From IMG/VR virus record IMGVR_UViG_2778261505_000002: DNA of 64,000 nt; one strand, 5' to 3'. Both the position numbers and the translations under genes were made by a program. Shown piece after piece: positions 2,812 to 55,870 of this stretch. This DNA is from a virus (lineage: Duplodnaviria; Heunggongvirae; Uroviricota; Caudoviricetes). How positions within the stretch are numbered: position 1 is the first letter of the stretch; each line of letters begins with the position of its first letter. The notes below the pieces were generated by a model. It ran no database searches and had not been told where the DNA came from. It worked only from the letters and a program-made list of their open reading frames with translations.

Positions 2812-3640
2812 AAGAAAACAACTAAATAACAGATCAACGAAACGTCAACGCTTTCACCCGATTTGGTCTAAAAAATTGACGTTTTCACACATCACTTCTT
2901 ATACCCGTAACTCTACGCAGCAGACAGCGCCACAGCGTCCAATTTTCACCACAGACGACCCAACACACTACCAACAAAAACATACGCTCAAAATCGCTCC
3001 CGTTGCGTTACACAACCATATAAACAACTTATTTTCAGTCATAACAAAACAACTAAATAACACACATGCCATTCCCAAAAACAACCAACCTCTTTATGGC
3101 AGGCTACCGAAAAGACCCACCTCTTCTCCCCAGGCTACCGGACAACCAACCTAACTTTCACAGGCAATCCGAAAACATTCATACGCGCGATACCCACGAC
3201 ACGCCATTCCCCAAACAGCGAAGAAACACCAGAATCACTGAAACCCCAACGAAGCCTGTAACCGCAAGGATTCTCTCAATCCCAAAAGACACGAAACAGA
3301 ACAATCACGGGAAACGCCATTACCCAATACACGAACAACTACAAAAGCCTTTCACACACTCCAGACAAACAACTCAAACACAATAACGAAAGCAATCGCC
3401 CACCTGCCATTACTCCATACACGGAGAAGAACAATCACCAAAACGACGAGAACACCCCATAGAAGAACCACCGCAAAACGAACGAAACCACATACACCGA
3501 CAGAGAAAACAACACACCCAATTCACCAACAGAAATAGTCGCCGTATAGAACATTCTGGAAGGAGTGAGCATTAACGCCTATAGAGAGGTTGAGACAGAT
3601 AAAACACAACATGTATAGCGAAGAAGCCAGGTATGTATAA
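2812..3640 (+). ncRNA. candidate non-coding transcript: C+A-rich, G-poor tract
   Basis: About 830 bp with strong strand skew (A and C dominate, few G), no credible ORF on either strand, dyad-like half-site at 5' end and hairpin terminator at 3' end. Confidence 0.3.
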
Positions 3641-3649
3641 GTGGGGAGG

Positions 3650-3676
3650 GAAGGAGGGGTGTCGCCTCCTTTTTCG
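3650..3676 (+). terminator. rho-independent terminator
   Basis: AGGAGG-GGTGTCG-CCTCCT hairpin followed by TTTTT. Confidence 0.65.
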
Positions 3677-3737: not shown

Positions 3738-3875
3738 ACAGGGAAAAGGCTGCATCCCGCTACAGAAACGGCTGGGTTGCCTTCGGGGAACGGCTGGAGG
3801 TTTTCAGGGAAACGGTCGAGTTGCCTGTGTGGATTTCGGGAAAAGGCTCGATGCCGGGTCAGGAACGGTGGCGTA
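3738..3875. repeat. iteron array, six direct repeats of core GGGAAACGGCTG at about 22 bp spacing
   Basis: Copies at 3741, 3764, 3785, 3808, 3838, 3861 with minor variation. Confidence 0.6.
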
Positions 3876-4203: not shown

Positions 4204-4217
4204 AAAACATGTTGTTT
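4204..4217. promoter_or_regulatory. dyad-like AAAACATGTTGTTT (early family, imperfect)
   Basis: Family member upstream of ATG 4230. Confidence 0.4.
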
Positions 4218-4229
4218 AAGGATTGCTTT

Positions 4230-4559
4230 ATGTTTACAAATATCGACATCAACCAAATCAAGAAATTAACTCAAAAAGAGTTTGATCAGTTTTATGAGTT
4301 AGAAGGTTGGTCTTCCACTCTGATCAATTCAAGATGGGTGCTGGAGCTGATGACTCGTGATGACGCACCTGCTTTGATGATTTGCGACATGGGTGAAGAT
4401 GCTGACTTTATGGATATGAGCGAATTTTGTGTGGACACATACAACCGCAGCCAGAAGTACTACTTCACATGCGATAGCGAGAATGACGTTATTTCTAAGG
4501 TCTATCTTCACCTCGTCCAGCATTGGGACGTTCAGGAGTTTCTTGAAGTATTCGAGTAA
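4230..4559 (+). CDS. hypothetical small acidic protein (109 aa)
   Basis: ATG 4230 with AAGGA RBS 8 nt upstream; the track start 4209 lies inside the operator; D/E-rich. Confidence 0.5.
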   Translation: MFTNIDINQIKKLTQKEFDQFYELEGWSSTLINSRWVLELMTRDDAPALMICDMGEDADFMDMSEFCVDTYNRSQKYYFTCDSENDVISKVYLHLVQHWDVQEFLEVFE

Positions 4560-4686
4560 CCCCAACCAAAGCCAGCATTGCTGGCTTAATTTCTCTATAG
4601 CCGCAGGGAAGAACCTGCATATCGCTCATGCACCTGATCAATATGCTTTGTAGCCGTTTTCTTACTGGTATTATTTACGCCATTGA

Positions 4687-4701
4687 GAAAACAAGTTGTT
4701 T
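4687..4701. promoter_or_regulatory. dyad GAAAACAAGTTGTTT (early family)
   Basis: Inverted repeat upstream of ATG 4713. Confidence 0.45.
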
Positions 4702-4712
4702 ACGGAGTTGTA

Positions 4713-5024
4713 ATGAAAAAATCATTGGTTCTTGGTCTGGACAAAGACCAGAAGAGAAAAGAGAAGCCTGCGCTGGTTGCTCAATTAACTTTGCTGGACA
4801 TCGTTGCCAATGGAACCTCTATTCGTCTGTTCCGTGAAACAGCGGTGTCTTTCGATAAAAACACCTTTACTCGTTATGTAATGAATGTTCGTCGCCAGCG
4901 TGGAAAAGGCTGGGTGGCATTTCAAAGAATGTGGCCGGAACATCAGCTCGAACTGGCTTTGATGGAAGTTAACCGCGTGGCCCAGCAAGAAATTCAGAGA
5001 GCATCAGTGATGGCAATAGCCTGA
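4713..5024 (+). CDS. hypothetical protein (103 aa)
   Basis: ATG 4713 preceded by GGAG; track ORF 4683 trimmed to first RBS-supported start. Confidence 0.5.
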   Translation: MKKSLVLGLDKDQKRKEKPALVAQLTLLDIVANGTSIRLFRETAVSFDKNTFTRYVMNVRRQRGKGWVAFQRMWPEHQLELALMEVNRVAQQEIQRASVMAIA

Positions 5025-5059
5025 TAATGTGCAAGTGGCAATTAGTCGACAGTACGACA

Positions 5060-5087
5060 GCCCCGCCATCCTTACGGGGCTTTTTTG
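5060..5087 (+). terminator. rho-independent terminator
   Basis: GCCCCG-loop-CGGGGC followed by TTTTTT. Confidence 0.75.
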
Positions 5088-5150
5088 TATTGTAAGTACA
5101 TACTTACGATCATAGAATATAAAAATAACCAAAACACTACGGAGAGTGAA

Positions 5151-5546
5151 ATGACCGTTAAACGCGAAAAACTGACAGTTGATGTTTACTATGCCTCTGA
5201 AACCGCCGAAGGTAAGAATGTGGCAAAAATCACCGTTGTTACGTACAACACCGAAACTGGTGCCGAAGTCCAGGCCAGTACGATCGTGCGTAAAGGTGAT
5301 GCCTCCGGCGGCGAGTACGCGACTCAATACCAGTCCATTCTCGATGCAACTGACCCGCTGCTGCTGAAAATCGAGAACTACTTCCGCCAGGTTGATGAAG
5401 AGGTGTTTGAAACCATGATGAATATGGTTAACACCGTATTCGCCTCCAGCCTGAATACCAACACTACCTGGATTGGTCAGTACGGCCTGCGCATTACCTC
5501 TGGCATTCCTGCCGACACCTTAATCCCTGAAAGCGTATTCGCTTAA
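5151..5546 (+). CDS. hypothetical protein (131 aa)
   Basis: ATG 5151 with GGAGAG RBS; track ORF 5085 trimmed. Confidence 0.55.
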   Translation: MTVKREKLTVDVYYASETAEGKNVAKITVVTYNTETGAEVQASTIVRKGDASGGEYATQYQSILDATDPLLLKIENYFRQVDEEVFETMMNMVNTVFASSLNTNTTWIGQYGLRITSGIPADTLIPESVFA

Positions 5547-5554
5547 TCCTCTTT

Positions 5555-5583
5555 AAATGGCGCGTAAACCGCGCCATTTTATT
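5555..5583 (+). terminator. rho-independent terminator
   Basis: ATGGCGCG-TAAACC-GCGCCAT hairpin followed by TTTATT. Confidence 0.7.
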
Positions 5584-5590
5584 AAGCCCG

Positions 5591-5605
5591 ATAACAATTT
5601 GTTTT
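5591..5605. promoter_or_regulatory. dyad ATAACAATTTGTTTT (early family)
   Basis: Inverted repeat upstream of the 5622/5664 gene. Confidence 0.45.
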
Positions 5606-5663
5606 CTGCCTTATCTGATTTGTGAAAATGATTTCACTGAAGCAAGTTAATAAGGAAACCATC

Positions 5664-6038
5664 ATGGGACTTGATATCTATATCGAGACACAGCCTAAAA
5701 ACGATCTGAATAACGAGGCATCCAGAAAGCAGGTTGCTTACTTCCGTAAGTTCAATGCGCTCGTTGGGTGGATGGAGCGCAACGTAGGTGAAGTCGAAAA
5801 TTGTGAGCTTTTAGAATTAACGATGAATGACATTTGTTTTCTGAAGGCTCATTTGATGCACATAAACGAAAGTAATTGCGAAGAGTACTTGCCTACCCGG
5901 GAAGGTTTTTTCTTCGGCAGTCAGGAGTACGATGAAGGTTACTGGCATGATGTGGGGCAGTTGAAAGAGCTTGTGGAAGACCTGATTAAGAACCACGACT
6001 TTCACAATAACAGACTGACCTTCTGCGCCTGGTGGTAA
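5664..6038 (+). CDS. hypothetical protein (124 aa; alternative start 5622)
   Basis: ATG 5664 has AAGGA RBS; upstream in-frame ATG 5622 cannot be excluded. Confidence 0.5.
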   Translation: MGLDIYIETQPKNDLNNEASRKQVAYFRKFNALVGWMERNVGEVENCELLELTMNDICFLKAHLMHINESNCEEYLPTREGFFFGSQEYDEGYWHDVGQLKELVEDLIKNHDFHNNRLTFCAWW

Positions 6039-6040
6039 AT

Positions 6041-6184
6041 ATGGGCGATTTCAAGAAACGCCTGAAGGAAAGAGCCGAGATGGTCAGAAAGCAAAACGCC
6101 TCTTCTGTCATCAGATACGCAAGGCAGTTTAGTCGCAACAACAAATCAGTTGAGGAAAAGATCCTTAGCGTAATCGGTCGATAA
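6041..6184 (+). CDS. small ORF (47 aa), basic
   Basis: ATG 3 nt after preceding stop, below the track length threshold; followed by a hairpin at 6189-6214. Confidence 0.3.
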   Translation: MGDFKKRLKERAEMVRKQNASSVIRYARQFSRNNKSVEEKILSVIGR

Positions 6185-6353
6185 TTATTAAGGCCATCAG
6201 CATTGGTGGCCTTAAATGACCATCCTGTTTCCCGCAGGCTAAAAACACCAACCTCTTACCTCCAGGCAACCGATAAACCCACCTGTTCCCGTCCGGCTAC
6301 CGCAACTTTCCACTTTGACGCCTTATTCGTACAACGATAATTAACACCAACAA

Positions 6354-6369
6354 GAAAACAATTTGTTAT
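6354..6369. promoter_or_regulatory. dyad GAAAACAATTTGTTAT (early family)
   Basis: Upstream of ATG 6389. Confidence 0.45.
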
Positions 6370-6388
6370 TTACGATAAGGAATTAATC

Positions 6389-6871
6389 ATGAATTTTATC
6401 GCCACTGTAAACGCACCCGCACATGGCAATATCGCTGTAACGTTCTCTGACATTGAAAAACGAGTACTTGGTGCATGGCGCGACAATGAGACGGTAGAAC
6501 TGTCAGCACAAGAAAAATGCATTATTGCACGCGACATCATTGGCAATCGTCGTTACTCGCGGGTATTTGAGAAAGCGTATGTGGTAAATTCTGGATTCGG
6601 AACGTTCGTCTTTCCGGTGCGCTCCGGGCGATTCTGCCAGTCCAAGCTGATTGAGTTCGCTACGCAGATTTCTGTCTGGATTAAAACTCAATCGTCGTTC
6701 AAATTTTCCGACGATGAAGCAGTATCGCAGGGGATGCGGATCGCCAACAATGCAATTAAATGCAAAAACATTACGTATACCGCTGGCGTTGATACATGGA
6801 AACTGTTTTGCGCTAACTTTATGCTGAATGTATACGCAAGCAACCGCATCCACATCCTTGATGGCGTGTAA
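6389..6871 (+). CDS. hypothetical protein (160 aa)
   Basis: ORF preceded by operator dyad and AAGGA RBS. Confidence 0.55.
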   Translation: MNFIATVNAPAHGNIAVTFSDIEKRVLGAWRDNETVELSAQEKCIIARDIIGNRRYSRVFEKAYVVNSGFGTFVFPVRSGRFCQSKLIEFATQISVWIKTQSSFKFSDDEAVSQGMRIANNAIKCKNITYTAGVDTWKLFCANFMLNVYASNRIHILDGV

Positions 6872-6880
6872 CTGAGAAGA

Positions 6881-6903
6881 GGGCCAGAAACGGCCCTTTC
6901 TCT
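6881..6903 (+). terminator. rho-independent terminator
   Basis: GGGCC-AGAAAC-GGCCC followed by TTTCTCT; loop itself resembles the iteron core. Confidence 0.6.
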
Positions 6904-6917
6904 ATAGCCACCAGCTG

Positions 6918-7000
6918 CCGCAGGGAAATTTTCAGAAACGGCGAGGAACGTATTCATGAGCCGACGGGGAACGGCCAGGATTTTTTCGGGAAACGGCTGC
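6918..7000. repeat. second iteron array, about four GGGAAACGGC-type repeats
   Basis: Copies at 6921, 6934, 6966, 6988 related to the 3738-3875 array. Confidence 0.5.
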
Positions 7001-7290
7001 ATTCGCCTTTGTGTAGAAAAAACATCGGGAAGCTGGTGGAATCCAACCAGCGGTTGTCGGACAGGTGAGCGGGGAAAATTATGATGACTTTCGTCACCTG
7101 AGACATCCAGATTTCTTTCGTAGCATAATCACATACGTGATTAAGTGGTGTGATTAAGTGAAAAATCACGCGCACATAATACGCGAGCGGATACAGAACA
7201 AAACAAAATGCCGATCCGCACCGACAAATAAACGCGGATCACATAGCAAGACTAAAAGCCAATGATTAACCATACTCTATAGCGCAATAT

Positions 7291-7482
7291 AACGCGTTTT
7301 AAGCGCGTTAATGTGTTAAGTAATGGGCATGTACTGGTAAGGATATAAAAGCGCGTCTATGGCGTTATTTTGGCGCTTATTTTTATGTTGTTGGAGTGAG
7401 TTAAAGACAATAAAAAACGCGCCATCAATGGCGCGTTATTGTGGAAGTATTGGAAACGAAAAAAGCGCCCATAGTGGGCGCT
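7291..7482. repeat. cluster of GC-rich palindromes in an AT-rich non-coding region
   Basis: AACGCG..CGCGTT at 7291, AACGCGCCAT-CA-ATGGCGCGTT at 7416-7437, AGCGCCCA-TAG-TGGGCGCT at 7464-7482; the last two are flanked by A and T runs (bidirectional terminator-like). Confidence 0.5.
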
Positions 7483-7487
7483 CGATT

Positions 7488-7718
7488 TTATTTGTGTAAA
7501 CTGATTTTAAATCCCATTTCTACGAACGCTTTTAACATTAAAAATATATCAGCGTCGTTCACGTCTGCTTTTTTTCGCTCCTGGTCGCTCAATAAGTCAA
7601 TTTTGCGCGTCGTTTCATCTATAAGCTCGACTGCGCGCCCAGCGTAACCAGCGATCCCAGCGATGCGATTAACATAATATTCATTATGGACGTTAACGCC
7701 AGCGATAAGAACAAACAT
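7488..7718 (-). CDS. hypothetical protein (76 aa)
   Basis: Last ORF of the leftward operon, followed by a hairpin terminator. Confidence 0.45.
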   Translation of the reverse strand: MFVLIAGVNVHNEYYVNRIAGIAGYAGRAVELIDETTRKIDLLSDQERKKADVNDADIFLMLKAFVEMGFKISLHK

Positions 7719-7739
7719 GATTAAGCTCCTTAAAAAAAA

Positions 7740-7943
7740 TTAAATAGAATTTTGAAGTTTTCCGATTAATGCGCTTAAGCGTAAGTATTCACGTTTGCGC
7801 TTGCAATCTCGCTTGCTGTTAAGCAAATCAGAAAACGTAAAATTTAATTGGTCGCGTTGCGCGATCAAATCGTCGATTAATTCCAGTTTATAAGCGCGAT
7901 AATTTGCGCGATATTCTGCGCGGATCTTGTCATAGCTGACCAT
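7740..7943 (-). CDS. hypothetical protein (68 aa)
   Basis: ATG with AAGGAG RBS; track ORF 7740-7988 trimmed. Confidence 0.45.
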   Translation of the reverse strand: MVSYDKIRAEYRANYRAYKLELIDDLIAQRDQLNFTFSDLLNSKRDCKRKREYLRLSALIGKLQNSI

Positions 7944-7960
7944 CTTTAAAGCTCCTTTAA

Positions 7961-7979
7961 AGCGCCCATTGTGGGCGCT
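7961..7979. repeat. palindrome AGCGCCCA-TTG-TGGGCGCT (third copy of the family)
   Basis: Same arms as 7464-7482; intergenic within the leftward operon. Confidence 0.5.
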
Positions 7980-7991
7980 TGATTCCATTAA

Positions 7992-8642
7992 TTACGCTTT
8001 AAAAGCATCAGCTAAATAATTGTAGAAATCATTCTTGATAAAGCGATATTGCTGTGTACCAGCTTTGGCGCTCCCAGCTCCTTTGACTTTTTCAACAAGT
8101 CCGAGACGTTCGCAAAGATTGATCAACTGGTTGGCTTGAGTATAGCCAGCGTCCAATTTAATTTCACACGCTTTTTTAGCTTCATTCATTAAATCGAAAA
8201 CAGCGCCATTGGTGAACGTGTCGATCTCGTCGTTAATCATATCGATTAAAGCGAATACACGAGATCCAGACATATCAGCGATGGAATAAATGCATTTACC
8301 AGATTTAATTGATTTAACCAGATAAACCAGTTTTTCCAGAGAATAACTATTAGTCATTGCATCACGAAAAAATACTTCTGGCGCTTGTTTGCTTGCTTTA
8401 ATCGCATAGTAGAAAACAGAGCACAATTTTTCGTCTTCTACAGCGTTTACAACGTTGTTGATGAAGTAAGCTAGTTTAGTGGTCGCAGCTTGCATATTTG
8501 CTTTGTCTGCTTTAGTGTGCGTACCATTTTTATAATGTTCGTTGTATGTTTGAGTTGCCAGATCTGCTTTTTCGCGCAGTTCATCGGATACAATGGAAGC
8601 AGCTTCAACGATGGATTTTTTAGAAATGATAATGTTAGCCAT
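7992..8642 (-). CDS. hypothetical protein (216 aa)
   Basis: ORF with AT-rich promoter region upstream (8643-8880); no motif recognised. Confidence 0.55.
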   Translation of the reverse strand: MANIIISKKSIVEAASIVSDELREKADLATQTYNEHYKNGTHTKADKANMQAATTKLAYFINNVVNAVEDEKLCSVFYYAIKASKQAPEVFFRDAMTNSYSLEKLVYLVKSIKSGKCIYSIADMSGSRVFALIDMINDEIDTFTNGAVFDLMNEAKKACEIKLDAGYTQANQLINLCERLGLVEKVKGAGSAKAGTQQYRFIKNDFYNYLADAFKA

Positions 8643-9237: not shown

Positions 9238-9762
9238 TCAAAAAGGCAAAATTCGTTCAACCCAATCGAACAAAACAACTATTTTTCTACCGTTCTCGAC
9301 ACGTAGTGTAACCTGACAAGCATCTGCACCTGCTGACACCCCCTCAATTTCACGGCCATCCGCCATGTACACCCTTATAGATTTGTTTGCTTTGTAGGCT
9401 TGGTTGCAAATTGCAAAAAAATCGCGGCGTGATGGCCGATTATCGACATAATCAGGGTGAACTGTTAGTCGACCTTTGAAATCGTGAGCGATACTGTCAA
9501 CCACACCTGATTCAATTGTACTAATGCGTTCAAGTGGGAGCCTTATACGATTTTCTTTGTCAAAAGGGGCTGGGCAAAGGTCAACTTTGTTACGAGATGG
9601 CATGAGGCCATAAACGTACATGCAAAACGCCTGGCCATCTTCGAGAGTGACCCTTACAGGAATTTGTTCTCTGCGCCAGAACATCAGTAGTTTTTCAACG
9701 TTAGTGTAATCTCGCGGCCAGAGTTCAGCTTGGATACCGTAGGTAATATCTTTGGTTGTCAT
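9238..9762 (-). CDS. hypothetical protein (about 175 aa)
   Basis: Track ORF 9238-9840 trimmed to the ATG just downstream of the lipoprotein stop. Confidence 0.45.
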   Translation of the reverse strand: MTTKDITYGIQAELWPRDYTNVEKLLMFWRREQIPVRVTLEDGQAFCMYVYGLMPSRNKVDLCPAPFDKENRIRLPLERISTIESGVVDSIAHDFKGRLTVHPDYVDNRPSRRDFFAICNQAYKANKSIRVYMADGREIEGVSAGADACQVTLRVENGRKIVVLFDWVERILPF

Positions 9763-9766
9763 GTCA

Positions 9767-10189
9767 TCACAGAGTTGTTGGCAGAATGTCGATGTCACCA
9801 GAATTGCTGGTGAACACCCTGAACGCTTTTGTGTCTCCATTCTTCAGAGTCGTTTCTCGCTCTTGACGAGCGGGGTTTAGAGCACATAAACCTGCACCTT
9901 CAAGAGATGCACCCACAATTAATTCTCCGGCATTTAAATGGAAAGTCGCTTTTTCGCCTGTAGCCAGTTTTGCGACAGTTTCGCCGTTGATGAAAATGGA
10001 AGCATCACATCCAGCTCCTACAAAACCTGTGTCTCTCATTACCACCAACGTAGCTGGCGCTGCGCTTTGATACTTGAACACTTTGGCCTGCGGTGCTGGT
10101 TTGGCGTCATGGATTGATATTGGGCGTGATTGGCACGCGGTAAGCATCAACACTGGTAACGTTAGTAGAGGGAGAAGCGAGTATTTCAT
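9767..10189 (-). CDS. lipoprotein (candidate superinfection-exclusion factor)
   Basis: MKYSLLPLLTLPVLMLTAC signal with lipobox LTAC; function is inference. Confidence 0.5.
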   Translation of the reverse strand: MKYSLLPLLTLPVLMLTACQSRPISIHDAKPAPQAKVFKYQSAAPATLVVMRDTGFVGAGCDASIFINGETVAKLATGEKATFHLNAGELIVGASLEGAGLCALNPARQERETTLKNGDTKAFRVFTSNSGDIDILPTTL

Positions 10190-10538: not shown

Positions 10539-12098
10539 CTAATCTCGTTTCAGAACTCCAAAATCGAATGCTCCATCAATAGGCAATACACCTTCTGCAA
10601 AGCCAGGTGTGGTGTCGATGATGTGTTTTCGCTCATAAGAGTGAGACAACAGGTATTTGTTGCTAATGTCAATGAAATCAGTGATAAAACACACGTTTGC
10701 CTGATTTTTTTTGGCTCGTAAGCCACGACCGACACGCTGTCTCATTTCAACTTCTGCTTTCCCACCACCAGCAAGAATGACCGCACCAACGCTTGGCACA
10801 TCAACACCAACATCCAGAATAGTCGAGCCTATTAAAACATCTATTTCACCAGACGCTAAACTATTCAGCTTTGCTTGCCTTGTCGTCTGGTTAGATTCCC
10901 CATAGATGAAATCAACTTTAAGACCTGACTCCTTCATCATCTCCATCAGGATTTGCCCGTGGCGTTTAAGACGAACCAGAGTCATGCAGTTGAGTGAATG
11001 TTGCTTATAAAGCAATGCCTCGCGCACTATGGCCTCGTTACGTCCCAAATTATACACGATCCCCAACTGATAAGCCTTTTGGTAGGCGGTGCTCATACCA
11101 ACTCTAAAATTGAGGTGTTTGTTGGCAAGTTCGGCCTTGATTCTGGCCTCGTCTGGCTTGTAGGCAACTTTATGATAAAGGAAGTACGGCTTTGCCAGAA
11201 TGCCTCGATCAATCAGGTACTTTTCTGTGACTTTAATTTCAATTCGCCCGGCCACCGCCATCAGGCGCATGTTGGCTTCCGTCGAATCCTTCATGAACGG
11301 CGTGGCTGTAAGCGCCAGACGATAGTCTGCGTTCACACATAATCTGGCAATGTCATAGAAATTAGAGCCTGAAGACTCATGCGCTTCTTCCAGAATAAGC
11401 AGAGACACACTTGAAAGGAAGCGTTTCACCAACTCCCGACGTTTGAGGTGGTAGCTCTTTTTATCTGGTGTTGCATCGCGTGGTGGTTCTTCAAGGAAAC
11501 TTGCCAGAGTTTGAACTGTAGCGACGTTGATATGTCGTGATACCTGGAACTCACCCGAGCCAATGACTCCAACCTTTTGGCCCTTTAACCACGGTTCGCC
11601 ATTTTCGGCGCGGTAGTCGATGGATCTCTGGAAGTTTTCGGCCATTTGAAACATCAGAACGGAGCGGGTTGTTAAAAATAATGTCATTCGACCGATACGT
11701 GCAGCTGCTTTGCAGGCAACGTTAGATTTCCCGCCACCAGTAGCGATCTGCGCAATCATCATTCCCTCTCGAACCAGTGTTTCCACAGTCTGATCCTGAT
11801 ACGCATAATCAGGATTGTATGGGAATGGGTTAACCGCAGGATTTGGTTTACCAAGCGCCGGGGCTTTGTCTTTGCGGATATGAACACATTTGATGCCCGC
11901 CTTGTTCAAGTTCGCCGCTACAGGCTTGGCAAAGCCAGCAGGGAACGAGTTTTTACTCCAGTTGAACATCGTGCTTGTGCCCTTCCAGTCGCCAGTCTCG
12001 ACTTCGTAGCTCAACATTTGCTGCACCAGTTGCTTTACCTTGTCATCTGCGCCAGAAATAAGCGCATTTACTGCGTTAGATACAATCCGAACAGTCAT
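10539..12098 (-). CDS. superfamily 2 helicase (DEAD/DEAH-like)
   Basis: Motif I ATGGGKS, motif II LEEAHE, motif III TATP, motif VI QRVGRGLR. Confidence 0.8.
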   Translation of the reverse strand: MTVRIVSNAVNALISGADDKVKQLVQQMLSYEVETGDWKGTSTMFNWSKNSFPAGFAKPVAANLNKAGIKCVHIRKDKAPALGKPNPAVNPFPYNPDYAYQDQTVETLVREGMMIAQIATGGGKSNVACKAAARIGRMTLFLTTRSVLMFQMAENFQRSIDYRAENGEPWLKGQKVGVIGSGEFQVSRHINVATVQTLASFLEEPPRDATPDKKSYHLKRRELVKRFLSSVSLLILEEAHESSGSNFYDIARLCVNADYRLALTATPFMKDSTEANMRLMAVAGRIEIKVTEKYLIDRGILAKPYFLYHKVAYKPDEARIKAELANKHLNFRVGMSTAYQKAYQLGIVYNLGRNEAIVREALLYKQHSLNCMTLVRLKRHGQILMEMMKESGLKVDFIYGESNQTTRQAKLNSLASGEIDVLIGSTILDVGVDVPSVGAVILAGGGKAEVEMRQRVGRGLRAKKNQANVCFITDFIDISNKYLLSHSYERKHIIDTTPGFAEGVLPIDGAFDFGVLKRD

Positions 12099-12162: not shown

Positions 12163-12861
12163 GTGGATTGTAGCAATAAAATGGATGTAAAAATCACGAT
12201 TTTGCAGGTTGATGTTGCCAACCTTCGCCCGAATACCTGGAACACCAATTCGGTTGGTGCGCAGAATTTTGAAAAACTGAAAGGTTCTATCGAAAAATTG
12301 GGCTTTTTTAAGCCAATTTTGGCTCGTGAACTTGAAGATGGATTTTTTGAAATCCTCGGCGGCGAACATCGCTGGCGTGCTGCTATTGAGCAAGGAATTT
12401 CAACGGTTCCGGTGCTTTCTGTGGGCAAAATTAGCGATGTCGTAGCTAAACAGATGTCACTGGTGGACAACGAGCGATACGGTGAAGACGACCAAATCGC
12501 ATTGCAACGCTTCATTGAAGAAATTCAGTCAGAACTTGACTATCAACTGTCTGAAATCGCTCCGTATGACGACGAAATCTCGATGGTTTTAGCAAAAGAG
12601 GCGGCAATCGACCTTGAAGCACTGGAGGCGTTGTCTCGTGGTAGTGATGAGCCTGTCGATACCGACAAACGAGAGAAAACCGAACGTGTGGGTGCGGAAC
12701 ATCAGACCATGCGCTTCAAAGTAACTTTCGATGCGTCAGATCGTGTTGCAGAAACCATAAAAAACATCATCAAAGAGCAGGCTATTAACACCGGTAATGA
12801 AATGGAGAACGCTGGTGAGGCTCTGGTGTGGCTGGTCGACTACTACAAGGAGCGTATGTAA
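12163..12861 (+). CDS. ParB N-terminal-domain (ParB/Srx-fold) protein
   Basis: GGEHRWRAA resembles the ParB arginine-rich box; start could be 12181. Confidence 0.6.
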   Translation: MDCSNKMDVKITILQVDVANLRPNTWNTNSVGAQNFEKLKGSIEKLGFFKPILARELEDGFFEILGGEHRWRAAIEQGISTVPVLSVGKISDVVAKQMSLVDNERYGEDDQIALQRFIEEIQSELDYQLSEIAPYDDEISMVLAKEAAIDLEALEALSRGSDEPVDTDKREKTERVGAEHQTMRFKVTFDASDRVAETIKNIIKEQAINTGNEMENAGEALVWLVDYYKERM

Positions 12862-13529
12862 TGACCAAAAAGTTTGAAATCGTATATCGCGACCCGGCAG
12901 ATCTTATTCCCTATGAGATGAATGCCAAAAAGCATGATGAACAGCAGATCAGAGATCTGGCCGCAGCCATTAAAAAGCGCGGATTTGACCAGCCAATTAC
13001 GGTCGATAAGAACGACGTAATTATTACTGGCCACGGCCGCCGTGAGGCTGCAATTTTTGCTGGACTTGAGCGCGTACCGGTTATTGTTCGTGATGATCTG
13101 AGTGATGACGAGGTACGTGCAAAGCGCCTTGAAGATAACCGACTTGCCAGCATTGATTACGATGCAATTAAGCTACAGAAAGAGCTTGAGTCGCTTGTTC
13201 TGGACGATATCGAGGTTTTCGGCTTCGAAGAGCGTGAGTTGAATGTTCTCGTTGGCAGTATGACAGAAGAAATGGACACCGACTCGCTAGTTATCGATCT
13301 TGGCGAAGAAACTAAACGACAGAAGGATGAACACACCGAGATCAGTCGTGAAGTTGCAGCGGAAGAAGTACGTGTTGTCGACGTATTGGGCTTTAAAACG
13401 CTCCCTGCTGGCTCTGCCATTGTTGTTGGTGATTTGCTTGCCCACATGGAAGAAATGACGGGAGAAAGCGGGGTAGACGCATTTGTGGCATATGCGGAGA
13501 AGATCTCTTCCGGGGAGATGGCTGCATGA
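12861..13529 (+). CDS. second ParB N-terminal-domain protein
   Basis: GHGRREAA motif; ATG overlaps the upstream stop (TAATG). Confidence 0.6.
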   Translation: MTKKFEIVYRDPADLIPYEMNAKKHDEQQIRDLAAAIKKRGFDQPITVDKNDVIITGHGRREAAIFAGLERVPVIVRDDLSDDEVRAKRLEDNRLASIDYDAIKLQKELESLVLDDIEVFGFEERELNVLVGSMTEEMDTDSLVIDLGEETKRQKDEHTEISREVAAEEVRVVDVLGFKTLPAGSAIVVGDLLAHMEEMTGESGVDAFVAYAEKISSGEMAA

Positions 13530-14191
13530 GCAAATACATCATCAACGTATCGTTTCAGACACGCGTAAATAAAACCACGCGCACGTTGGAAATCGCTGAG
13601 TCGTTCGGGCTTGGCCTGGACGAAAAAGAGTGGACGCTTTACGACAATCTGGAGCTGGAAGTGAAGCAGGGCGATGTGGTGTACATCACCGGCCAATCCG
13701 GTTCCGGCAAATCCGTTGTGCTGCGCGAGTTGCAACGACAGATGAAGGATGAAGGGCTGTCTGTAGCCTCCATCGATGATTTTACCTTCGATAATGAGGT
13801 TAACGTCATCGATCAGTTGGGCAAAACGACCAGTGATGCGCTTGGGTTGTTATCTATGGCTGGTCTGAACGATGCATATCTGTTTGTTCGCAAGCCTTCT
13901 GAAATGTCAGACGGCCAGAAATATCGTCTCAAGATTGCCAAACTGATTGAGTCAGGCGCTAAAGTATGGGCTGCTGACGAGTTCGGCGCTGTTCTAGACC
14001 GTGTAACTGCTCAGGTTGTGGCGTCTAACCTCCAGCGTGCCGCTCGAAAGGTTGGTGCGACGGTAATGGTGGCGACGACTCACGAAGACCTGAAGAACGC
14101 GCTGCGCCCGGATATGCAGATCACCAAGCACTACAAAGAACGCGTGAAGGTGGAATATCACAATGGTAGTCATGATGAGGTCCATTCATGA
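13526..14191 (+). CDS. small ABC-type ATPase (nucleotide-binding-domain-like, 221 aa)
   Basis: Walker A GQSGSGKS, signature-like MSDGQ, Walker B VWAADEF, H-loop TTHE; ATGA overlap with upstream gene. Confidence 0.6.
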   Translation: MSKYIINVSFQTRVNKTTRTLEIAESFGLGLDEKEWTLYDNLELEVKQGDVVYITGQSGSGKSVVLRELQRQMKDEGLSVASIDDFTFDNEVNVIDQLGKTTSDALGLLSMAGLNDAYLFVRKPSEMSDGQKYRLKIAKLIESGAKVWAADEFGAVLDRVTAQVVASNLQRAARKVGATVMVATTHEDLKNALRPDMQITKHYKERVKVEYHNGSHDEVHS

Positions 14192-33095: not shown

Positions 33096-36000
33096 ATGGA
33101 ACAGTTCAAGAAGAAAAAATTACCGCTTCTTATTGCCGGTGCTGGTGGCAAGAAAAGTAAAAGCTCCAGCCGTACCCCGGTTGAAGCTGATGATACTGTC
33201 AATTCTCGTGCTATGGCAGCCATCCTCGACCTTCTTGGCGAGGGGGTTATCGGTGGCCTGGTAAATGGCGCAAAGTCGATCTTCATCGACGATTTACCGA
33301 TCTTGAATGAAGATGGCTCTTCCAACTTCAGCGGTATTACATGGGATTTTCGTGACGGCTCACAAGACCAGACGCCAATGGCTGGTTTTGATTTTGTTGA
33401 AACGCCTAAGTCCGTAAATATTCAGCTTAAAAAAACACACGACGTTACGGTTTCAATCGATAACGATGAAGCTGATCGCGTTCGTGTCATCATGAAATTC
33501 CCCTCTTTACGTAGCGTTGATAAAAGCTCTGGCGATACAAATGGCACTACGGTGAAGTACAAATTCCAGATCGCCAACGCAGACGCAACATTTTCTGATG
33601 TAGTGGCAGAAGGTGAGAAAAGCGTTGATATCACGCTAACGGCAAAGAAAACCGGCGTGTATTACCGTAGCTATGAGCTGAAACTGCCTAAGCCTGGTCG
33701 TGCATACAAGGTTAGGGTGATTCGTCTTACAGATGATAATAGTAGCCAGTACCTCTACAACGACACATGGGTTGATTCCATCGGTGAGATTGTCGACACG
33801 CCAATGAACTACCCTAACTCTGCTCTTGTTGGCTTGAAGGTCAATTCAGAGCAGTTTGGTAGCACAATGCCTTCCCGTTCGTATTTGGTGCGCGGTATCA
33901 AAATCCGAGTACCGTCAAACTACAACGAATACACCAATACTTATGTCGGCGTATGGGACGGTACTTTTAAGCTGTTGTCTTCTTCAAACCCTGCGTGGAT
34001 TCTCTACGATTTGCTTACCAATACTCGGTATGGTCTTGGGCAATTTGTGTCGGAATCCATGATTGACCTCGGCCAGCTCTACCAGATTGGTCGATATTGT
34101 GACGAAGAGGTCGATGATGGCTTTGGGGGTAAAGAGAAACGCTTTGCAATCAATACGCAGATCACCAGTCGACAAGACGCATACCGATTAATTCAGGATA
34201 TTGCCGGTGCATTCCGCGGCATGGTGTTTTGGGCTGGTGGCATGGTTAACATCATGCAGGATAGCCCATCAGATCCGGTAATGATGTTTACCAACTCCAA
34301 CGTCAAAGATGGACTGTTTACCTATAAAGGTTCTGCGCGTAAAGATCGCCCATCCGTTGCGCTCGTAACCTACAACAACAAGGAGGACGGTTATAAGCAA
34401 AATATCGAGTACGTTGAAGATCAGGACGCAATGCGCCGTTATGGTGAGCGTAAAACAGAAGTCGTAGCATTTGGATGTACAAGCCGAGGCCAGGCTCACC
34501 GAGTTGGTTTGTGGCTGTTGTATACCGCCAGAATGGAGTCGGATGTAATTACATTTACTGCCGGCTTAGACGCCTCATTTCTGATGCCTGGTGAAACCGT
34601 TCTGATTCAGAACAAATATCGTGCAGGTAAACGTAACTCCGGTCGAATTGTGGAGTTTACCAAAAACAGCATCACTCTCGATGCGCCTGTGTCGTTAGCT
34701 AAAAGCGGCAGCTTTATTCGGATATTGAATCAGGAAGGCAAAATCGTTGAACGCGATGTTCTTGAAACTGGCGAAAACATAACAAAGGTTACGTTTTCAA
34801 AAGCCCTGTCGTCAGCGGAAACGCCTGTTTTGAACGGTGTCTGGACAATTACAGAACCAGATCTCGAACCTATGCGCGTTCGCATCGTTAACATCGCACA
34901 GGGGGAAACGTCGGGTAGCTTTGACATCACCGCTGTTGAGAACAATCCGTCTAAATATGAGGCAATCGACAATGGTGCAACGCTGATCCCGCAGAATACG
35001 ACGGTATTGGACCCAACTTACTCCAAGCCATCTAATCTGCAAATCACTGAAGGGACTTATCTCTCAAGCCCGGGCAACCTGTCAGTAAAACTGACTGCAA
35101 CATGGGAAGGGAAATCTCCAGAGTATTGGATCAGTTGGCGACGTTCTGATGAAAACAATGTATCGAACTGGCAATCGGCGCGTGTAACCGAAGAGCAATA
35201 CGAAATCGTTAATGTCGCGGAGAATGGACGCTACGACTTCCAGCTGTATGCGGTTTCATTCAACGGTAAAAAAACAGAGATTATCAGTACCGTTTATCAG
35301 GTGTTGGGCACAATGACACCGCCTGATGCCCCAACGTCATTAACGGCCGTTGGAGACTATCGTAATGTGATACTGAATTGGGTTAATCCAGATTCGGTAG
35401 ACCTTGATCACATTAATGTTTACGCATCCCAGACCAACAATCTGGATACGGCGAAACTGATCGCAGAGTCTGCAAGCACCACCTTTACACATGCTGGTCT
35501 TGGGGATAGCGAAACGTGGTATTACTGGGTTCGAGCATCGAACAAGCGAGGTATGTTAAGTCCTCCGAACTCAAACTTGGGTACAGAGGCGACAACTCGC
35601 GATGTACTGTCGTTCCTGACTGGCAAAATTACATCTTCCGAGCTTGGTCAGGCTCTGCTTGAGGACATCAACAGCAAAGTCTCTCAAGAAGCAGTTGACG
35701 AGTTAAATGAGCATATCAACCAGAGCGTCGAATCTTTAGAGGGGGCGGTAAACGACGTTAAGGAAGATATAGCTGAATTAGATAAGCAGTTCAGCGATAA
35801 CCTCGCGGGTTTTGAAATAAAATTCAACGAGCGTAGCGATGCTTTGGAGAACGCACAAACCGAGCTTAAAGGTGAGGTTTCGGCAACGATTAACAAGGTC
35901 AATGAAGCGTTTGAAAAAATTGATGCTACTGATGCTGCAATTGTTGAAATCGAAAACACCGTATCTGAACACGATAAAGCTCTCGCTAATACAGTCGAGG

Positions 36001-37913: not shown

Positions 37914-40900
37914 ATGTGGTACAGGGAAGGTACTATCACATTTACACAGGGCAGCAATACTCTGGTTGGGGCAGGGACAGCCTGGAACGTAACAGCTAAT
38001 GGTGTGTTGCCGGGGATGATCGTCATTGGCCCCGACAATAAGCTGTATGAGATCAAGCGCGTAACCAGTGATACGAACATTGTTCTCTCAGAACCTTATA
38101 CCGGCGAAACTCAGTCTGAAGTTCCGTGCCGAATCATTACGACCTATGAAGGCGACTTAACACAGTTTAGCGCGCGCTTTACTGCGCTAATGTCGCGTAT
38201 ATCGGCTGATTCCAAGTCCATACGCAGTTGGTTGACTGCGCTGGATGAGGTGACAATCGAGCGTGAAGACGGTACAGAAGTGACCGTTAAGCCGCTAATG
38301 CAGATCGTCAACGAGCACAACGAAAACGTTGAGTGGTATAAAAATAACACTGACGCGATTGATGCTGCTGGCGACAAAGCTCGTGAGGCGGCGGCCAGTG
38401 CTGCCGCAGCAGCAAAAAGCGCCAATGCCGCTGGAGAAAAAGCCTCTCAAGCGTCTCAAAGTGCATCCGCTGCGGCATCCTCACAAAGTGCCGCAAGTGC
38501 GAGTGCAACTGCTGCGAAAAAATCTGAAACGAATGCTGCAGCGTCACAAAAATCTGCAGCCACTTCTGCATCCACCGCGACCACGAAGGCGTCAGAAGCT
38601 GCCACCTCAGCCCGGGATGCGGCGGCCTCAAAAGAGGCAGCGAAATCATCAGAAACGAGCGCAGCCTCGAGCGCCAGTAATGCCGCTTCCTCGGCAACGG
38701 CGGCAGGAAATTCCGCGAAGGCGGCAAAAACGTCCGAGACGAACGCCAGGTCTTCTGAAACGGCAGCGGGACAGAGCGCCTCGGCTGCGGCAGGCTCAAA
38801 AACAGCGGCTGCGTCGTCTGCCAGTGCCGCGTCAACAAGTGCCGGGCAGGCCTCAGCCAGTGCCACCGCCGCCGGAAAATCGGCAGAAAGTGCCGCATCG
38901 TCTGCTTCAACTGCCACAACGAAGGCTGGCCAAGCCACTGAACAGGCCAGCGCAGCAGCGAGGTCTGCTTCCGCAGCGAAGACATCCGAAACGAACGCGA
39001 AAGCGTCGGAAACCCGTGCAGAATCCTCAAAAACGGCAGCCGCATCGTCCGCCAGTTCGGCGGCGTCATCGGCATCATCGGCGTCTGCTTCAAAAGATGA
39101 GGCGACCAGACAGGCGTCAGCAGCGAAGGGCAGCGCCACGACGGCATCCACGAAAGCAACAGAGGCGGCAGGCAGTGCGACGGCAGCATCTCAGAGCAAA
39201 ACTGCTGCTGAATCCGCTGCGACCCGTGCGGAAGCTGCTGCTGATCGTGCTGAAGAGATTGCCGGTGCAGTTGCGATGGAAGACGCAAGCCTTACAACTA
39301 AAGGTGTTGTGAAACTTAGCAGTGCTGTCGACAGCACCAGTGAATCGCTGGCCGCAACGCCAAAAGCAGTTAAAGCAGCCAATGACAATGCGAATAGCAG
39401 GGTGCCATCTAACCGAAAAGTTAACGGTAAAGCACTGACTGCGGATATCAAATTAACGCCGAAAGATATTGGTACTTTAAATTCAGTAACGATGTCTTTC
39501 TCTGGCGGGGCAGGGTGGTTCAAACTGGCTACGGTTACCATGCCACAAGCGAGTTCCATCGTTTACATCGCATTGATTGGTGGCGCTGGTTACAACGTCG
39601 GCTCCCCACATCAGGCAGGCATTTCAGAACTGGTTCTACGAGCAGGCAATGGAAACCCCAAAGGGATTACAGGTGCTTTGTGGAAGCGTACAGCTGTCGG
39701 ATTAACGAATTTCGCCTGGATCAACACATCCGGCGATACATATGATATTTACGTTGAGATTGGCAATTATGCGACTCGTGTAAATATCCATTGGGATTGT
39801 ACTGCAAATGCGACAGTTTCTATTTATACCTCGCCAACATATTCAGCGAGTAAGCCTTCCAGCGTTACCGATGGTGTTGTTTATACGATGTATAGCACAC
39901 ATCAGAAACCGACGCCGTTAGATATTGGAGCACTGCCAACAACCGGAGGAACAGTTTCAGGTCCGTTGTCTGTTACAGGTGGATTAACTGGTTCATTGAA
40001 TGGTAATGCAAGTACAGCCACGAAATTGCAGACGGCAAGATCTATCGGTGGAGTTGTTTTCGACGGTTCTGCAAATATTAACCTTCCAGGTGTAAACACT
40101 ACGGGTAATCAGAACACCACTGGTAATGCTGCAACTGCTACAAAACTTCAGACGGCAAGAACTATCGGCGGCGTGAGCTTTGATGGTACTGCGAATATTA
40201 ATTTGCCAGGTGTTAATACGACTGGTAATCAGAACACAACGGGCAACGCGGCTACTGCTACGAAGTTGCAGACTGCGCGTACTATCAATGGGGTGTCGTT
40301 TGACGGCTCGGCAAATATTGCCTTGTCGCCAGCAAATATAGGTTGCCCGGCATCTCCTACTGGTTGGTTAACTACAGGAAGTAATGGAGGAGCAATAACG
40401 ACAGCCCAGTTAGTTACTTTGTTGCAAAATAACGGGGCATTCAGTACGAAAGCATGGATCGCTCGTTGTGCATGGGCGTATGCGAATAGTGCATCCATAC
40501 CAGACAGTGAAACTGGTTGTGGCATTATTCCACTGGCGGGTGCTGTGATAGAAGTATTCAGCAATAATACCAACAATTACACCATTCGAATAACAACGGC
40601 CACTACGACAAATGTCTCTGGTGCACTCACTAATGCGGAGTTTATCTATGTGTCTAATGGCTCAAGTTATTCACCTGGATGGCGCAGAGCGTATAACACT
40701 AGAAACAAACCAACAGCTTCTGATGTAGGAGCATTACCGCTTTCAGGTGGCACATTATCTGGAGGGTTAACGTCTTCTGGTGAGATCGTTTCAAAATATG
40801 CAAATGGTTTCCGCATTGCTTACGGTAACTTTGGGTTCTTTATCCGTAATGATGGGGCGAACACATATTTCCTGCTAACAGCATCAGGAGACACATTAGG

Positions 40901-55774: not shown

Positions 55775-55779
55775 ATTTA

Positions 55780-55866: not shown

Positions 55867-55870
55867 AATT

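What the first reader, a model, noticed from the sequence alone, without database searches (positions are those of the whole stretch)
6905..7490. Second iteron array plus AT-rich palindrome cluster: candidate origin or centromere region
Iterons at 6918-7000 are followed by roughly 500 bp without ORFs, AT-rich and containing several GC-rich palindromes (including AATCAC-ATAC-GTGATT near 7127 and three AGCGC..GCGCT-type hairpins). Iterons plus an AT-rich tract is the classic plasmid-type origin layout (established knowledge); here it sits between divergent early-like and leftward operons.
Basis: partly seen in the sequence, partly recalled or inferred. Interest (0 to 1): 0.5.

Follow-up and report, generated by a model that had tools for sequence, protein, structure and literature searches.

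The report
Conserved repeat array beside transcription terminators
A 616-base gene-free gap in an SSU5-type phage-plasmid of E. coli holds a strongly conserved array of direct DNA repeats, probably a docking site for a phage-plasmid protein and possibly a second replication origin, fenced in by ordinary transcription terminators.

Summary
The window is an SSU5/pHCM2/pMT1-type phage-plasmid of E. coli.

**What holds up**
- The iterons are real. Cores GGGAAACGGC sit at 6933, 6966 and 6988, spaced 33 and 22 bp.
- They are paralogous to a six-copy array at 3741-3871.
- They are under purifying selection across Escherichia, Klebsiella, Salmonella, Yersinia and others.

**What does not hold up**
- The gap is not AT-rich.
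- It lies between convergent operons, not divergent ones.
- The GC-rich hairpins on its right are conserved intrinsic terminators of the leftward operon.
- The AATCAC palindrome lies in a stretch evolving at about the neutral rate and is specific to the E. coli clade.

**What it is not**
- Not the RepA (IncFIB) plasmid origin. RepA iterons differ and repA lies about 39 kb away.
- Not a par-linked centromere.
- Not a known or structured RNA.

**Best reading (about 0.4 overall)**
A DNA-level protein-binding array, insulated from transcription. It is most plausibly bound by the highly conserved neighbouring 216-aa coiled-coil plus winged-helix protein. It may serve phage-mode replication as an origin or an auxiliary site.

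Similar 22-bp GGAAACGG arrays lie inside O-like initiator genes of unrelated phages. No such initiator, DNA-unwinding tract or DnaA box is present here, so the origin function stays unproven.

The parts
6881..6903 (+). Intrinsic-terminator-like hairpin (GGGCC-AGAAAC-GGCCC plus TTTCTCT) ending the rightward small-gene operon.
   Evidence: Sequence read. A hairpin is kept at this position in every clade, with different stem sequences: GGGGC/GCCCC in most clades and GGGAGA/TCTCCC in L096.
6908..6915 (-). Chi site (GCTGGTGG on the - strand) on the left flank of the iterons, oriented towards them.
   Evidence: Present at the same position in 7 of 10 clade representatives.
6918..7024 (+). Iteron array 2. 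It contains the half-site GCAGGGAAA (6920-6928), the cores CAGAAACGGC (6933-6942), GGGGAACGGC (6966-6975) and GGGAAACGGC (6988-6997), and the conserved tail CGCCTTTGTGTAGAAAA.
   Evidence: Identity to the pMT1/SSU5 clade is 0.73-0.76, against 0.45-0.63 at third codon positions of the flanking genes. The last unit, TTTTCGGGAAACGGCYRG, is unchanged in the five most divergent relatives read (L096, L097, L103, L104, L105).
7032..7039 (+). Chi site on the right flank of the iterons, oriented towards them.
   Evidence: Other clades carry a + strand Chi about 40 bp further right at a non-homologous position.
7025..7290 (.). Variable spacer. It contains an E. coli-clade cluster of GTGATY motifs, including the palindrome AATCACATACGTGATT (7127-7142) and GTGATTAAGTG twice (7137-7147, 7150-7160).
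   Evidence: Identity to other clades is 0.47-0.51, about the neutral level. There are 5 GTGATY within 120 bp; no other 120-bp stretch of the window has more than 2. One TGTGATTA copy is found at a similar position in all 12 clades examined.
7347..7378 (-). Third, weaker hairpin followed by a T-run. It is terminator-like in both directions.
   Evidence: 7361-7377 and 7353-7365 on the + strand; alignment.
7413..7440 (-). Intrinsic terminator T2 of the leftward operon (AACGCGCCAT-TGAT-GGCGCGTT plus TTTTAT on the - strand).
   Evidence: 9 pairs, 6 of them G-C, followed by TTTTATTGTC. The stem and the A-run are invariant across clades while the loop varies.
7462..7483 (-). Intrinsic terminator T1 of the leftward operon (GAGCGCCCAC-TAT-GGGCGCTT plus TTTTCG). 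Weakly bidirectional.
   Evidence: Invariant in alignment A1. A similar copy at 7959-7989 follows the next gene (family D1).
3741..3871 (+). Iteron array 1, the paralogous partner. Six cores at 3741, 3763, 3785, 3807, 3838 and 3862, spaced 22/22/22/31/24 bp. It also lies just downstream of a terminator-like hairpin (3643-3675).
   Evidence: Present in SSU5 and PhiR41_1, absent from pMT1.
7992..8642 (-). Gene for a 216-aa protein with an N-terminal helical hairpin and a C-terminal winged-helix-like domain. This is the candidate iteron-binding protein (inferred, not shown).

Best explanation
The gap is the meeting point of two convergent operons. It contains one functional cis-element, an array of three to four direct repeats (core GGGAAACGGC).

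**Shown**
- The array is conserved well above the neutral level.
- Its repeats are spaced at whole numbers of helical turns.
- It has a six-copy paralogue 3.1 kb upstream.
- These two arrays are the only clusters of this motif in the roughly 108-kb element.
- Terminators on both sides shield it from transcription: one on the left for the rightward operon, and two to three in tandem on the right for the leftward operon.

**Inferred**
- The repeats act as double-stranded DNA sites on which several copies of one sequence-specific protein assemble on one face of the helix.
- The most likely protein is the neighbouring, very conserved 216-aa coiled-coil plus winged-helix protein.
- The most likely function is in the element's phage-type replication, which uses its own DnaB-like helicase, primase and Pol III alpha. 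The array would be an origin, or an origin-auxiliary site working together with array 1 as ori and crr do in phage P4.
- It is not the RepA/IncFIB plasmid origin.

The remaining about 250 bp of the gap is a nearly neutral spacer. The AATCAC palindrome cluster there is a lineage-specific feature of the E. coli clade.
For: **Family and synteny.** The window is 97-99% identical to the E. coli SSU5-like phage-plasmids CMS-2020a, PhiR41_1 and Cyrano. The gap is syntenic and 590-640 bp long in 779 plasmid records, including pMT1 and pHCM2.

**Selection.** The iteron block is 0.73-0.76 identical to the pMT1/SSU5 clade. The third-codon proxy is 0.45-0.63 and the middle of the gap is 0.47-0.51.

**Phasing.** Core-to-core distances across all clades are 22, 31, 33/34, 44/45 and 53 bp.

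**Not a structured RNA.** There is no Rfam hit. The RNA fold is weaker than that of all 200 shuffles (z = +2.4). No pMT1 sRNA maps here.

**Not RepA iterons.** The pMT1 RepA iterons are of the ACTCTCTACAGTGGATA type and flank repA. repA of PhiR41_1 lies about 39 kb away.

**Analogy with phage origins.** 22-bp arrays of TGGAAACGGC-N5/6-(C)GCC lie inside 'replication initiation O-like' genes of unrelated phages, and two of the three are followed within about 30-45 bp by two or three GATC motifs.

**Candidate binding protein.** In the one lineage where its gene is frameshifted, otherwise invariant iteron cores carry 3 substitutions.

**Chi sites.** Chi sites facing inwards bracket the iterons, the polarity expected around an origin.
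Against: - No AT-rich unwinding element lies next to the iterons. The flank is 50-53% GC.
- There is no DnaA box.
- GATC clusters in the spacer are present in most clades but absent in two.
- No homologue of O-like initiators exists anywhere in the window, pMT1 or PhiR41_1, and there is no decayed O gene around the arrays.
- Cumulative GC skew and genome-wide Chi orientation do not switch at the gap. The skew extreme is at repA.
- The link between protein and iterons is by adjacency plus one anecdotal lineage.
- The resemblance to O-type origins was found with a pattern that itself required the 8-mer, so part of it is due to how the cases were found.
Confidence: 0.4

Rival explanations
1. Operator arrays for a transcription regulator. 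The two arrays bracket the small-gene operon 4209-6871. A multimeric regulator, possibly the 216-aa winged-helix protein, binds both and represses or insulates the operon by DNA looping or by blocking RNA polymerase. This would resemble OL-OR looping in lambda.
For: - The two arrays are 3.1 kb apart, in the same orientation, and flank one operon.
- Each lies just after a terminator.
- The fold matches of the candidate protein are mostly ArsR/MarR/PadR regulators.
- No unwinding element or initiator was found.
Against: - pMT1 lacks array 1 yet keeps array 2 intact and conserved.
- Array 2 has no downstream + strand gene to control and no conserved promoter. The promoter-like count is not above chance (3 against 4.2).
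- Direct repeats in helical phase are unusual for dimeric winged-helix repressors.
Confidence: 0.25
2. Partition centromere or plasmid-pairing site. A centromere-binding protein assembles on the phased repeats and is moved by a partition ATPase.
For: - Arrays of short phased direct repeats are typical of type Ib, II and III centromeres (established knowledge).
- TubR, a centromere-binding winged-helix protein, is among the weak Foldseek hits.
- A 52-kb deletion derivative that lost the structural genes keeps this block.
Against: - The par genes are elsewhere and differ between members. The window has a small ParA at 45878-46546, while pMT1 has a ParA/ParB pair annotated at 61.8-64.0 kb. The array is invariant throughout.
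- No partition NTPase is encoded next to the gap.
Confidence: 0.1
3. RNA-level motif array. Transcripts through the arrays display repeated GGA/GGGAAAC motifs that bind or sequester an RNA-binding protein. One candidate is the FljA-like protein encoded at 9238-9840, whose chromosomal relative binds the fliC leader.
For: - A FljA-family protein (PF03614, E=2.5e-84) is syntenic with the gap in all relatives.
- Array 2 of the E. coli clade shares ACGGCGA, GAGCCGACGGG and GAAAC with the E. coli K-12 fliC leader.
- All copies are on the strand of the upstream operon.
Against: - Terminators on both sides shield the array from transcription.
- The fliC-like 11-mer is confined to the E. coli clade.
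- Spacing at whole helical turns has no rationale in RNA.
- There is no Rfam hit, and no pMT1 sRNA was reported here.
Confidence: 0.08
4. Replication-fork or transcription barrier. A winged-helix protein of the RTP type, bound to the polar arrays, arrests forks or polymerases at the zone where transcription converges.
For: - The B. subtilis replication terminator protein appears among the Foldseek hits (1f4k, probability 0.99, E=0.1).
- The arrays share one orientation, and array 2 sits where the two operons converge.
Against: - The fold hit is not significant.
- The bracketing Chi sites point towards the array, not away from it as expected for ends created at a barrier (inference).
- The position is not opposite repA.
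Confidence: 0.07
5. Nothing beyond terminators. The gap is only a convergent intergenic spacer, and the repeats are a non-functional leftover.
For: - The hairpins are clearly terminators.
- The middle of the gap evolves about neutrally.
Against: - The iteron block is conserved far above the neutral proxy.
- Its last unit is unchanged in lineages whose flanking proteins have diverged to 51-63% identity.
Confidence: 0.03

Closest known systems
Lambdoid 'ori inside the O gene' origins, O-like initiators of PHROG family phrog_9773
   Same: - Tandem direct repeats with a 22-bp period.
- The same GGAAACGG core, and the same inner layout: GGAAACGGC, 5-6 bases, then (C)GCC.
   Different: - The arrays here are non-coding.
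- No O-like initiator is encoded anywhere in the element.
- No tract of close-set GATC motifs follows them as in two of the three O-gene arrays. The flank here is 50-53% GC and not AT-rich.
Phage P4 ori plus crr (two iteron clusters bound by the alpha protein; established knowledge)
   Same: Two clusters of the same iteron, a few kb apart, in a phage-plasmid.
   Different: - No alpha-type primase-helicase with an iteron-binding domain was identified.
- Whether both arrays are needed is unknown. pMT1 has only one.
P1 / RepFIB iteron-controlled plasmid replicon (oriR-repA-incA), the replicon that this family itself carries
   Same: Phased direct repeats occurring in two clusters.
   Different: - The sequence is unrelated to the family's RepA iterons.
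- The arrays are about 39 kb from repA.
- There is no DnaA box and no AT-rich tract.
Rho-independent terminators at convergent operon ends
   Same: The hairpins at 6881-6903, 7413-7440 and 7462-7483 have GC-rich stems and T-runs, and they sit at the 3' ends of the two operons.
   Different: This explains only the hairpins, not the repeat array.

Membership tests
Iteron-type plasmid origin of the element's own RepA (IncFIB / P1-like) | The repeats match the iterons bound by the replicon's Rep protein. | tested here: not met
   pMT1 RepA iterons are of the ACTCTCTACAGTGGATA type, with a 21-bp period, on both sides of repA. No GGGAAACGGC cluster lies near repA.
Iteron-type plasmid origin of the element's own RepA (IncFIB / P1-like) | The origin is adjacent to the rep gene. 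| tested here: not met
   repA of PhiR41_1 is at 104369-105463 and the gap is at 35125-35739, about 39 kb away. In pMT1, repA is at 717-1781 and the gap at 11362-11984.
Iteron-type origin in general | Several direct repeats in helical phase. | tested here: met
   Spacings of 22, 31, 33/34, 44/45 and 53 bp across both arrays and all clades.
Iteron-type origin in general | An adjacent AT-rich DNA-unwinding element. | tested here: not met
   The gap is 45.3% GC against 46.6% for the window, and the iteron flank is 50-53% GC. The AT-richest 40-mer (7377) is the T-run of a terminator-like hairpin about 380 bp away.
Iteron-type origin in general | DnaA boxes or IHF sites. | tested here: not met
   There is no perfect TTATNCACA in the gap, and one-mismatch hits are not enriched (53 against 61 expected in the window). 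No IHF pattern scan was run; the AATCAC palindrome, read by eye, does not fit the IHF consensus.
Iteron-type origin in general | Supports autonomous replication, or gives a copy-number peak. | not testable with these tools
   This needs marker-frequency sequencing or cloning. GC skew shows no turning point of its own at the gap, but that bears mainly on the plasmid-mode origin.
Lambdoid ori-in-O-gene origin | The iterons lie within, or next to, an O-like initiator gene. | tested here: not met
   phmmer and hmmsearch run at full sensitivity (--max) with four O-like proteins found nothing in the window, pMT1 or the rest of PhiR41_1. tblastn of the array flanks matched only the repeat-encoded peptide.
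ParABS or type Ib centromere | The site lies beside the par operon and co-varies with its centromere-binding protein. | tested here: not met
   The ParA-like gene is at 45878-46546 in the window. pMT1 has an AAA ATPase and a ParB family protein annotated at 61.8-64.0 kb. The array is the same in both.
Known non-coding RNA families (Rfam 15) | A covariance-model match at or above the gathering score. | tested here: not met
   The only hits in the window are tRNAs at 55.7-55.9 kb. In the gap the best scores are 15-26 bits, against gathering scores of 39-111.
Rho-independent terminators (the hairpins only) | A GC-rich stem followed by a T-run, at the 3' end of a transcription unit, and conserved. 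| tested here: met
   7483-7463 and 7437-7416 on the - strand each have 9 pairs, 6 of them G-C, followed by T-runs. They lie directly after the stop codon of the leftward operon. Stems and A-runs are invariant in alignment A1.

The most novel reading that the evidence does not exclude
The two GGGAAACGGC arrays and the adjacent 216-aa coiled-coil plus winged-helix protein form the so far unidentified phage-mode (lytic) replicon of the whole SSU5/pHCM2/pMT1 family. This would be a second origin-initiator pair, independent of RepA, with a two-site ori plus auxiliary-site architecture and an initiator unrelated in sequence to the O-like initiators tested.
Probability: 0.25. Interest if true: 0.65.

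Novelty: new member of a known kind. Interest (0 to 1): 0.45.

Why it matters
SSU5-like phage-plasmids include pMT1 of Yersinia pestis and pHCM2 of Salmonella Typhi. They are also common in clinical Klebsiella, Enterobacter and E. coli: 779 plasmid records matched this gap.

Their plasmid replicon (RepA/IncFIB) is recognised. How they start phage-mode replication and how they switch between the two life styles is not known.

This study finds a strongly conserved, unannotated cis-element with a plausible dedicated binding protein. That gives a concrete and cheap experimental handle: array deletions, binding assays with the 216-aa protein, and marker-frequency sequencing after induction.

If the array turns out to be a regulatory or partition site instead, it would still be a family-wide control element that current annotation misses.

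Tried and rejected
- **RepA origin.** Rejected. The RepA iterons are different and lie beside repA.
- **O-like initiator or decayed O gene.** Searched in the window, pMT1 and the rest of PhiR41_1. Nothing found.
- **Known RNA.** Rfam at gathering and at permissive thresholds gave nothing. RNAalifold on 36-47 sequences found only the terminator hairpins. The single-sequence fold is weaker than shuffles.
- **Published sRNAs on pMT1.** The two reported ones map elsewhere.
- **Hidden small protein gene in the gap.** Open frames are not kept across clades.
- **DnaA boxes, AT-richness, GC skew.** All negative.
- **GATC cluster as a family-wide feature.** Present in most clades but absent in two.
- **Genome-wide Chi polarity switch at the gap.** Not seen.
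- **Similarity to the fliC leader and a link to FljA.** Real for the E. coli clade but not conserved across the family, so kept only as a minor rival.
- **Literature.** No description of these arrays was found. One 2026 preprint on copy number of these phage-plasmids could not be opened.

Full report
**1. What the window is**

- The region 6300-8100 is 97-99% identical to the E. coli SSU5-like phage-plasmids CMS-2020a, PhiR41_1 and Cyrano.
- The finding covers the gene-free gap 6872-7487. On its left is a + strand 160-aa ORF (6389-6871). On its right is a - strand 76-aa ORF (7718-7488).
- The two genes converge.
- The gap has the same neighbours and nearly the same length (about 590-640 bp) in 779 plasmid records. 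These include pMT1 of Yersinia pestis and pHCM2 of Salmonella Typhi, plasmids of Klebsiella, Enterobacter, Citrobacter and Cronobacter, and phage SSU5 itself.

- The repeats are real. G(G/A)AACGGC occurs on the + strand at 6887, 6935, 6968 and 6990. GAAACGGC is the only exact 8-mer present three or more times within 160 bp of non-coding DNA in the 64 kb.
- The 'first' array lies at 3741-3871, with six cores spaced 22/22/22/31/24 bp. The two arrays share a 55-bp paralogous stretch.
- No other cluster of the motif exists in the window, in the 100 kb of pMT1 examined, or in the rest of PhiR41_1.
- The palindrome at 7127-7142 and the GC-rich hairpins are present. Terminator-like hairpins are enriched, 10 against 3.0 expected.
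- The gap is not AT-rich. It is 45.3% GC against 46.6% for the window, and the iteron part is 52.8% GC.

**3. What is conserved**

An alignment of eleven BLAST-selected relatives (A1) and one of 49 unique sequences give the same picture. I used identity at third codon positions of the two flanking genes as a rough neutral level. Against the pMT1/SSU5 clade that level is 0.45-0.63.

| Segment | Identity to the pMT1/SSU5 clade |
|---|---|
| Iteron block 6900-7024 | 0.73-0.76 |
| Right-hand terminators 7411-7487 | 0.82-0.85 (0.74-0.94 over all ten relatives) |
| Middle 7025-7290 | 0.47-0.51 |
| 7291-7410 | about 0.60 |

- Selection therefore acts on the iterons and the terminators, not on the middle.
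- The middle contains the AATCAC palindrome. That palindrome is part of a cluster of five GTGATY motifs specific to the E. coli clade. Only one copy, TGTGATTA, is found at a similar position in all 12 clades examined.
- In the five most divergent relatives read, the flanking proteins are only 51-63% identical. The last repeat, TTTTCGGGAAACGGCYRG, is still unchanged in them.

**4. The hairpins**

- On the - strand, 7483-7463 and 7437-7416 are near-perfect intrinsic terminators. Each has 9 pairs followed by a T-run.
- They sit directly after the stop codon of the leftward operon. Stems and A-runs are invariant and the loops vary. A third, weaker hairpin is at 7347-7378.
- On the left, 6881-6903 is the terminator of the rightward operon. 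A hairpin is kept at this position in every clade, although the stem sequence differs.
Together they shield the central part of the gap from transcription on both sides.

**5. DNA site or RNA?**

Several results point to DNA:

- Distances between adjacent cores in both arrays and all clades are 22, 31, 33/34, 44/45 and 53 bp. These are two to five helical turns. The sequences are related, so this is not an independent sample.
- There is no Rfam match, even at permissive thresholds.
- RNAalifold finds only the terminators.
- The + strand RNA of 6900-7030 folds worse than all 200 shuffles (z = +2.4).
- The published Y. pestis sRNA list has two pMT1 sRNAs, and neither lies here.

I conclude that the array is a DNA-level binding site for several copies of one protein.

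**6. Which known system?**

- It is not the element's plasmid origin. In pMT1 the RepA iterons are an unrelated sequence flanking repA. repA lies about 10 kb from the gap in pMT1 and about 39 kb away in PhiR41_1. The cumulative GC skew extreme is at repA.
- It is not a par-linked centromere. The par genes differ between members and lie elsewhere.
- A pattern scan of viral contigs gave a lead. Besides the SSU5-like contigs, it returned several unrelated phages with 22-bp tandem arrays of TGGAAACGGC-N5/6-(C)GCC.
- Three of those arrays lie inside 'replication initiation O-like' genes (phrog_9773). In two of the three, two or three GATC motifs follow within about 30-45 bp. An origin inside the initiator gene is the lambda arrangement (established knowledge).
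- The repeat unit here shares the core and also the inner GGC-N-GCC layout with them. The pattern required the 8-mer, so part of the resemblance is due to how the cases were found.
- No O-like initiator, and no remnant of one, exists in this element.
- There is no DnaA box and no unwinding tract next to the iterons.
- The array therefore works like an iteron site, but it fails the membership tests for each specific origin family.

**7. A candidate binding protein**

- The 160-aa protein upstream gave a confident model but no fold match.
- The 216-aa protein on the other side (7992-8642) is 81-87% identical across genera, unusually conserved for this family.
- Foldseek gives no significant hit. 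Its list consists of winged-helix domains: Orc1/Cdc6, MukE/F, RTP, TubR and PadR.
- The gene abuts the gap, or sits one or two small ORFs from it, in every relative read. This includes one relative in which it is inverted.
- In the one lineage where the gene is frameshifted, three substitutions hit otherwise invariant iteron cores. Six of the 15 gap differences from its nearest intact relative fall in the roughly 100-nt iteron block.
- This is suggestive only. It rests on adjacency and one lineage.

**8. Other local features**

- Chi (GCTGGTGG) is about nine-fold over-represented in the window, 14 against 1.5 expected.
- One Chi on the - strand (6908) and one on the + strand (7032) bracket the iterons and point towards them. 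This is the polarity seen around a bidirectional origin (established knowledge for the E. coli chromosome).
- The same bracket is found in 6 of 10 clade representatives. The + copy sits at a non-homologous position in the other clades.
- Genome-wide Chi orientation does not switch at the gap.
- A 52-kb deletion derivative that lost the structural genes keeps the block helicase, FljA-like gene, 216-aa gene, gap and 160-aa gene.

**9. Verdict**

- High confidence, about 0.75: the array is a selected DNA-level protein-binding array, with a paralogue, insulated by terminators.
- Lower confidence, about 0.3: it serves phage-mode replication as an origin or auxiliary site.
- The main rival is an operator or looping role around the small-gene operon. 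A centromere, an RNA decoy for the FljA-like protein, or a fork barrier are less likely.
- I found no description of these arrays in the searchable literature. One possibly relevant 2026 preprint could not be read.
- Novelty: a new member of a known kind.
- Interest is moderate. The family is medically prominent and the experiments are simple, but the mechanism is unproven.

Noticed in passing
window 1532, 1579, 4202, 4686, 5593, 6353, 15469, 15494, 45827, 48757, 59287: The motif AGAAAACAANTTGTT (palindromic core AACAA-N-TTGTT) occurs 23 times with up to 2 mismatches, against 3.4 expected. There are 9 perfect copies. Nearly all lie about 30-45 bp upstream of start codons on the coding strand, including the ParA-like, DnaB-like and CobT genes. 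It looks like a dispersed operator or a translational operator. Its regulator is unknown; the FljA-like protein is one candidate.
   Followed up: partly
window 9238-9840 (-): A protein of the FljA family (PF03614, repressor of phase-1 flagellin, E=2.5e-84, with a weak Hfq-like hit at its C-terminus) is encoded 2 kb from the gap. It is syntenic in the family members whose neighbourhoods were read, apart from three where no such gene appears in the annotation or in the stretch fetched. The E. coli-clade array shares GAGCCGACGGG and ACGGCGA with the E. coli fliC leader.
   Followed up: partly
window 3300-3540: About 240 bases of extremely A+C-rich, G/T-poor sequence lie just upstream of array 1, partly inside the ORF 3066-3386. 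Unexplained.
   Followed up: no
whole window; gap copies at 6908-6915 (-) and 7032-7039 (+): Chi (GCTGGTGG) is about nine-fold over-represented: 14 copies against 1.5 expected, reached by none of 100 shuffles. Nine copies are on the + strand. This suggests selection for protection from RecBCD.
   Followed up: partly
window 4593-4612, 6900-6928, 7275-7283: CTCTATAGC follows terminator hairpins at 4593 and 6900. In both places it leads into GCAGGGAA. It recurs at 7275. This is confined to the E. coli clade.
   Followed up: no
window 7127-7169: Five GTGATY motifs occur within 120 bp; no other 120-bp stretch of the window has more than 2. They form AATCAC-ATAC-GTGATT, then GTGATTAAGTG twice, then ATCAC. 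The arrangement looks like an operator but is specific to the E. coli clade. Other clades have CGTGATC copies containing GATC instead.
   Followed up: partly
L096 6730-6860 (most divergent relative): In place of the variable spacer, this relative has AT-rich tandem repeats (GCTAAATGGCTAAAC, about four copies) followed by three GATC within 30 bp. This is more origin-like than the spacer in the window.
   Followed up: no
window 55700-56250: A cluster of four tRNA genes (Asn, Tyr, Thr, Ser).
   Followed up: no
window 40013-40319: A 120-bp tandem repeat (2.2-2.5 copies, 74-76% matches) lies inside the large tail-fibre-like ORF 37914-42065.
   Followed up: no
window 12163-14191: Two adjacent ParB N-terminal-domain proteins are followed by an ABC-type ATPase, transcribed divergently from the DEAD-box helicase. 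The cluster is seen in the relatives whose neighbourhoods extend that far. Its function is unknown and it was not linked to the arrays.
   Followed up: no
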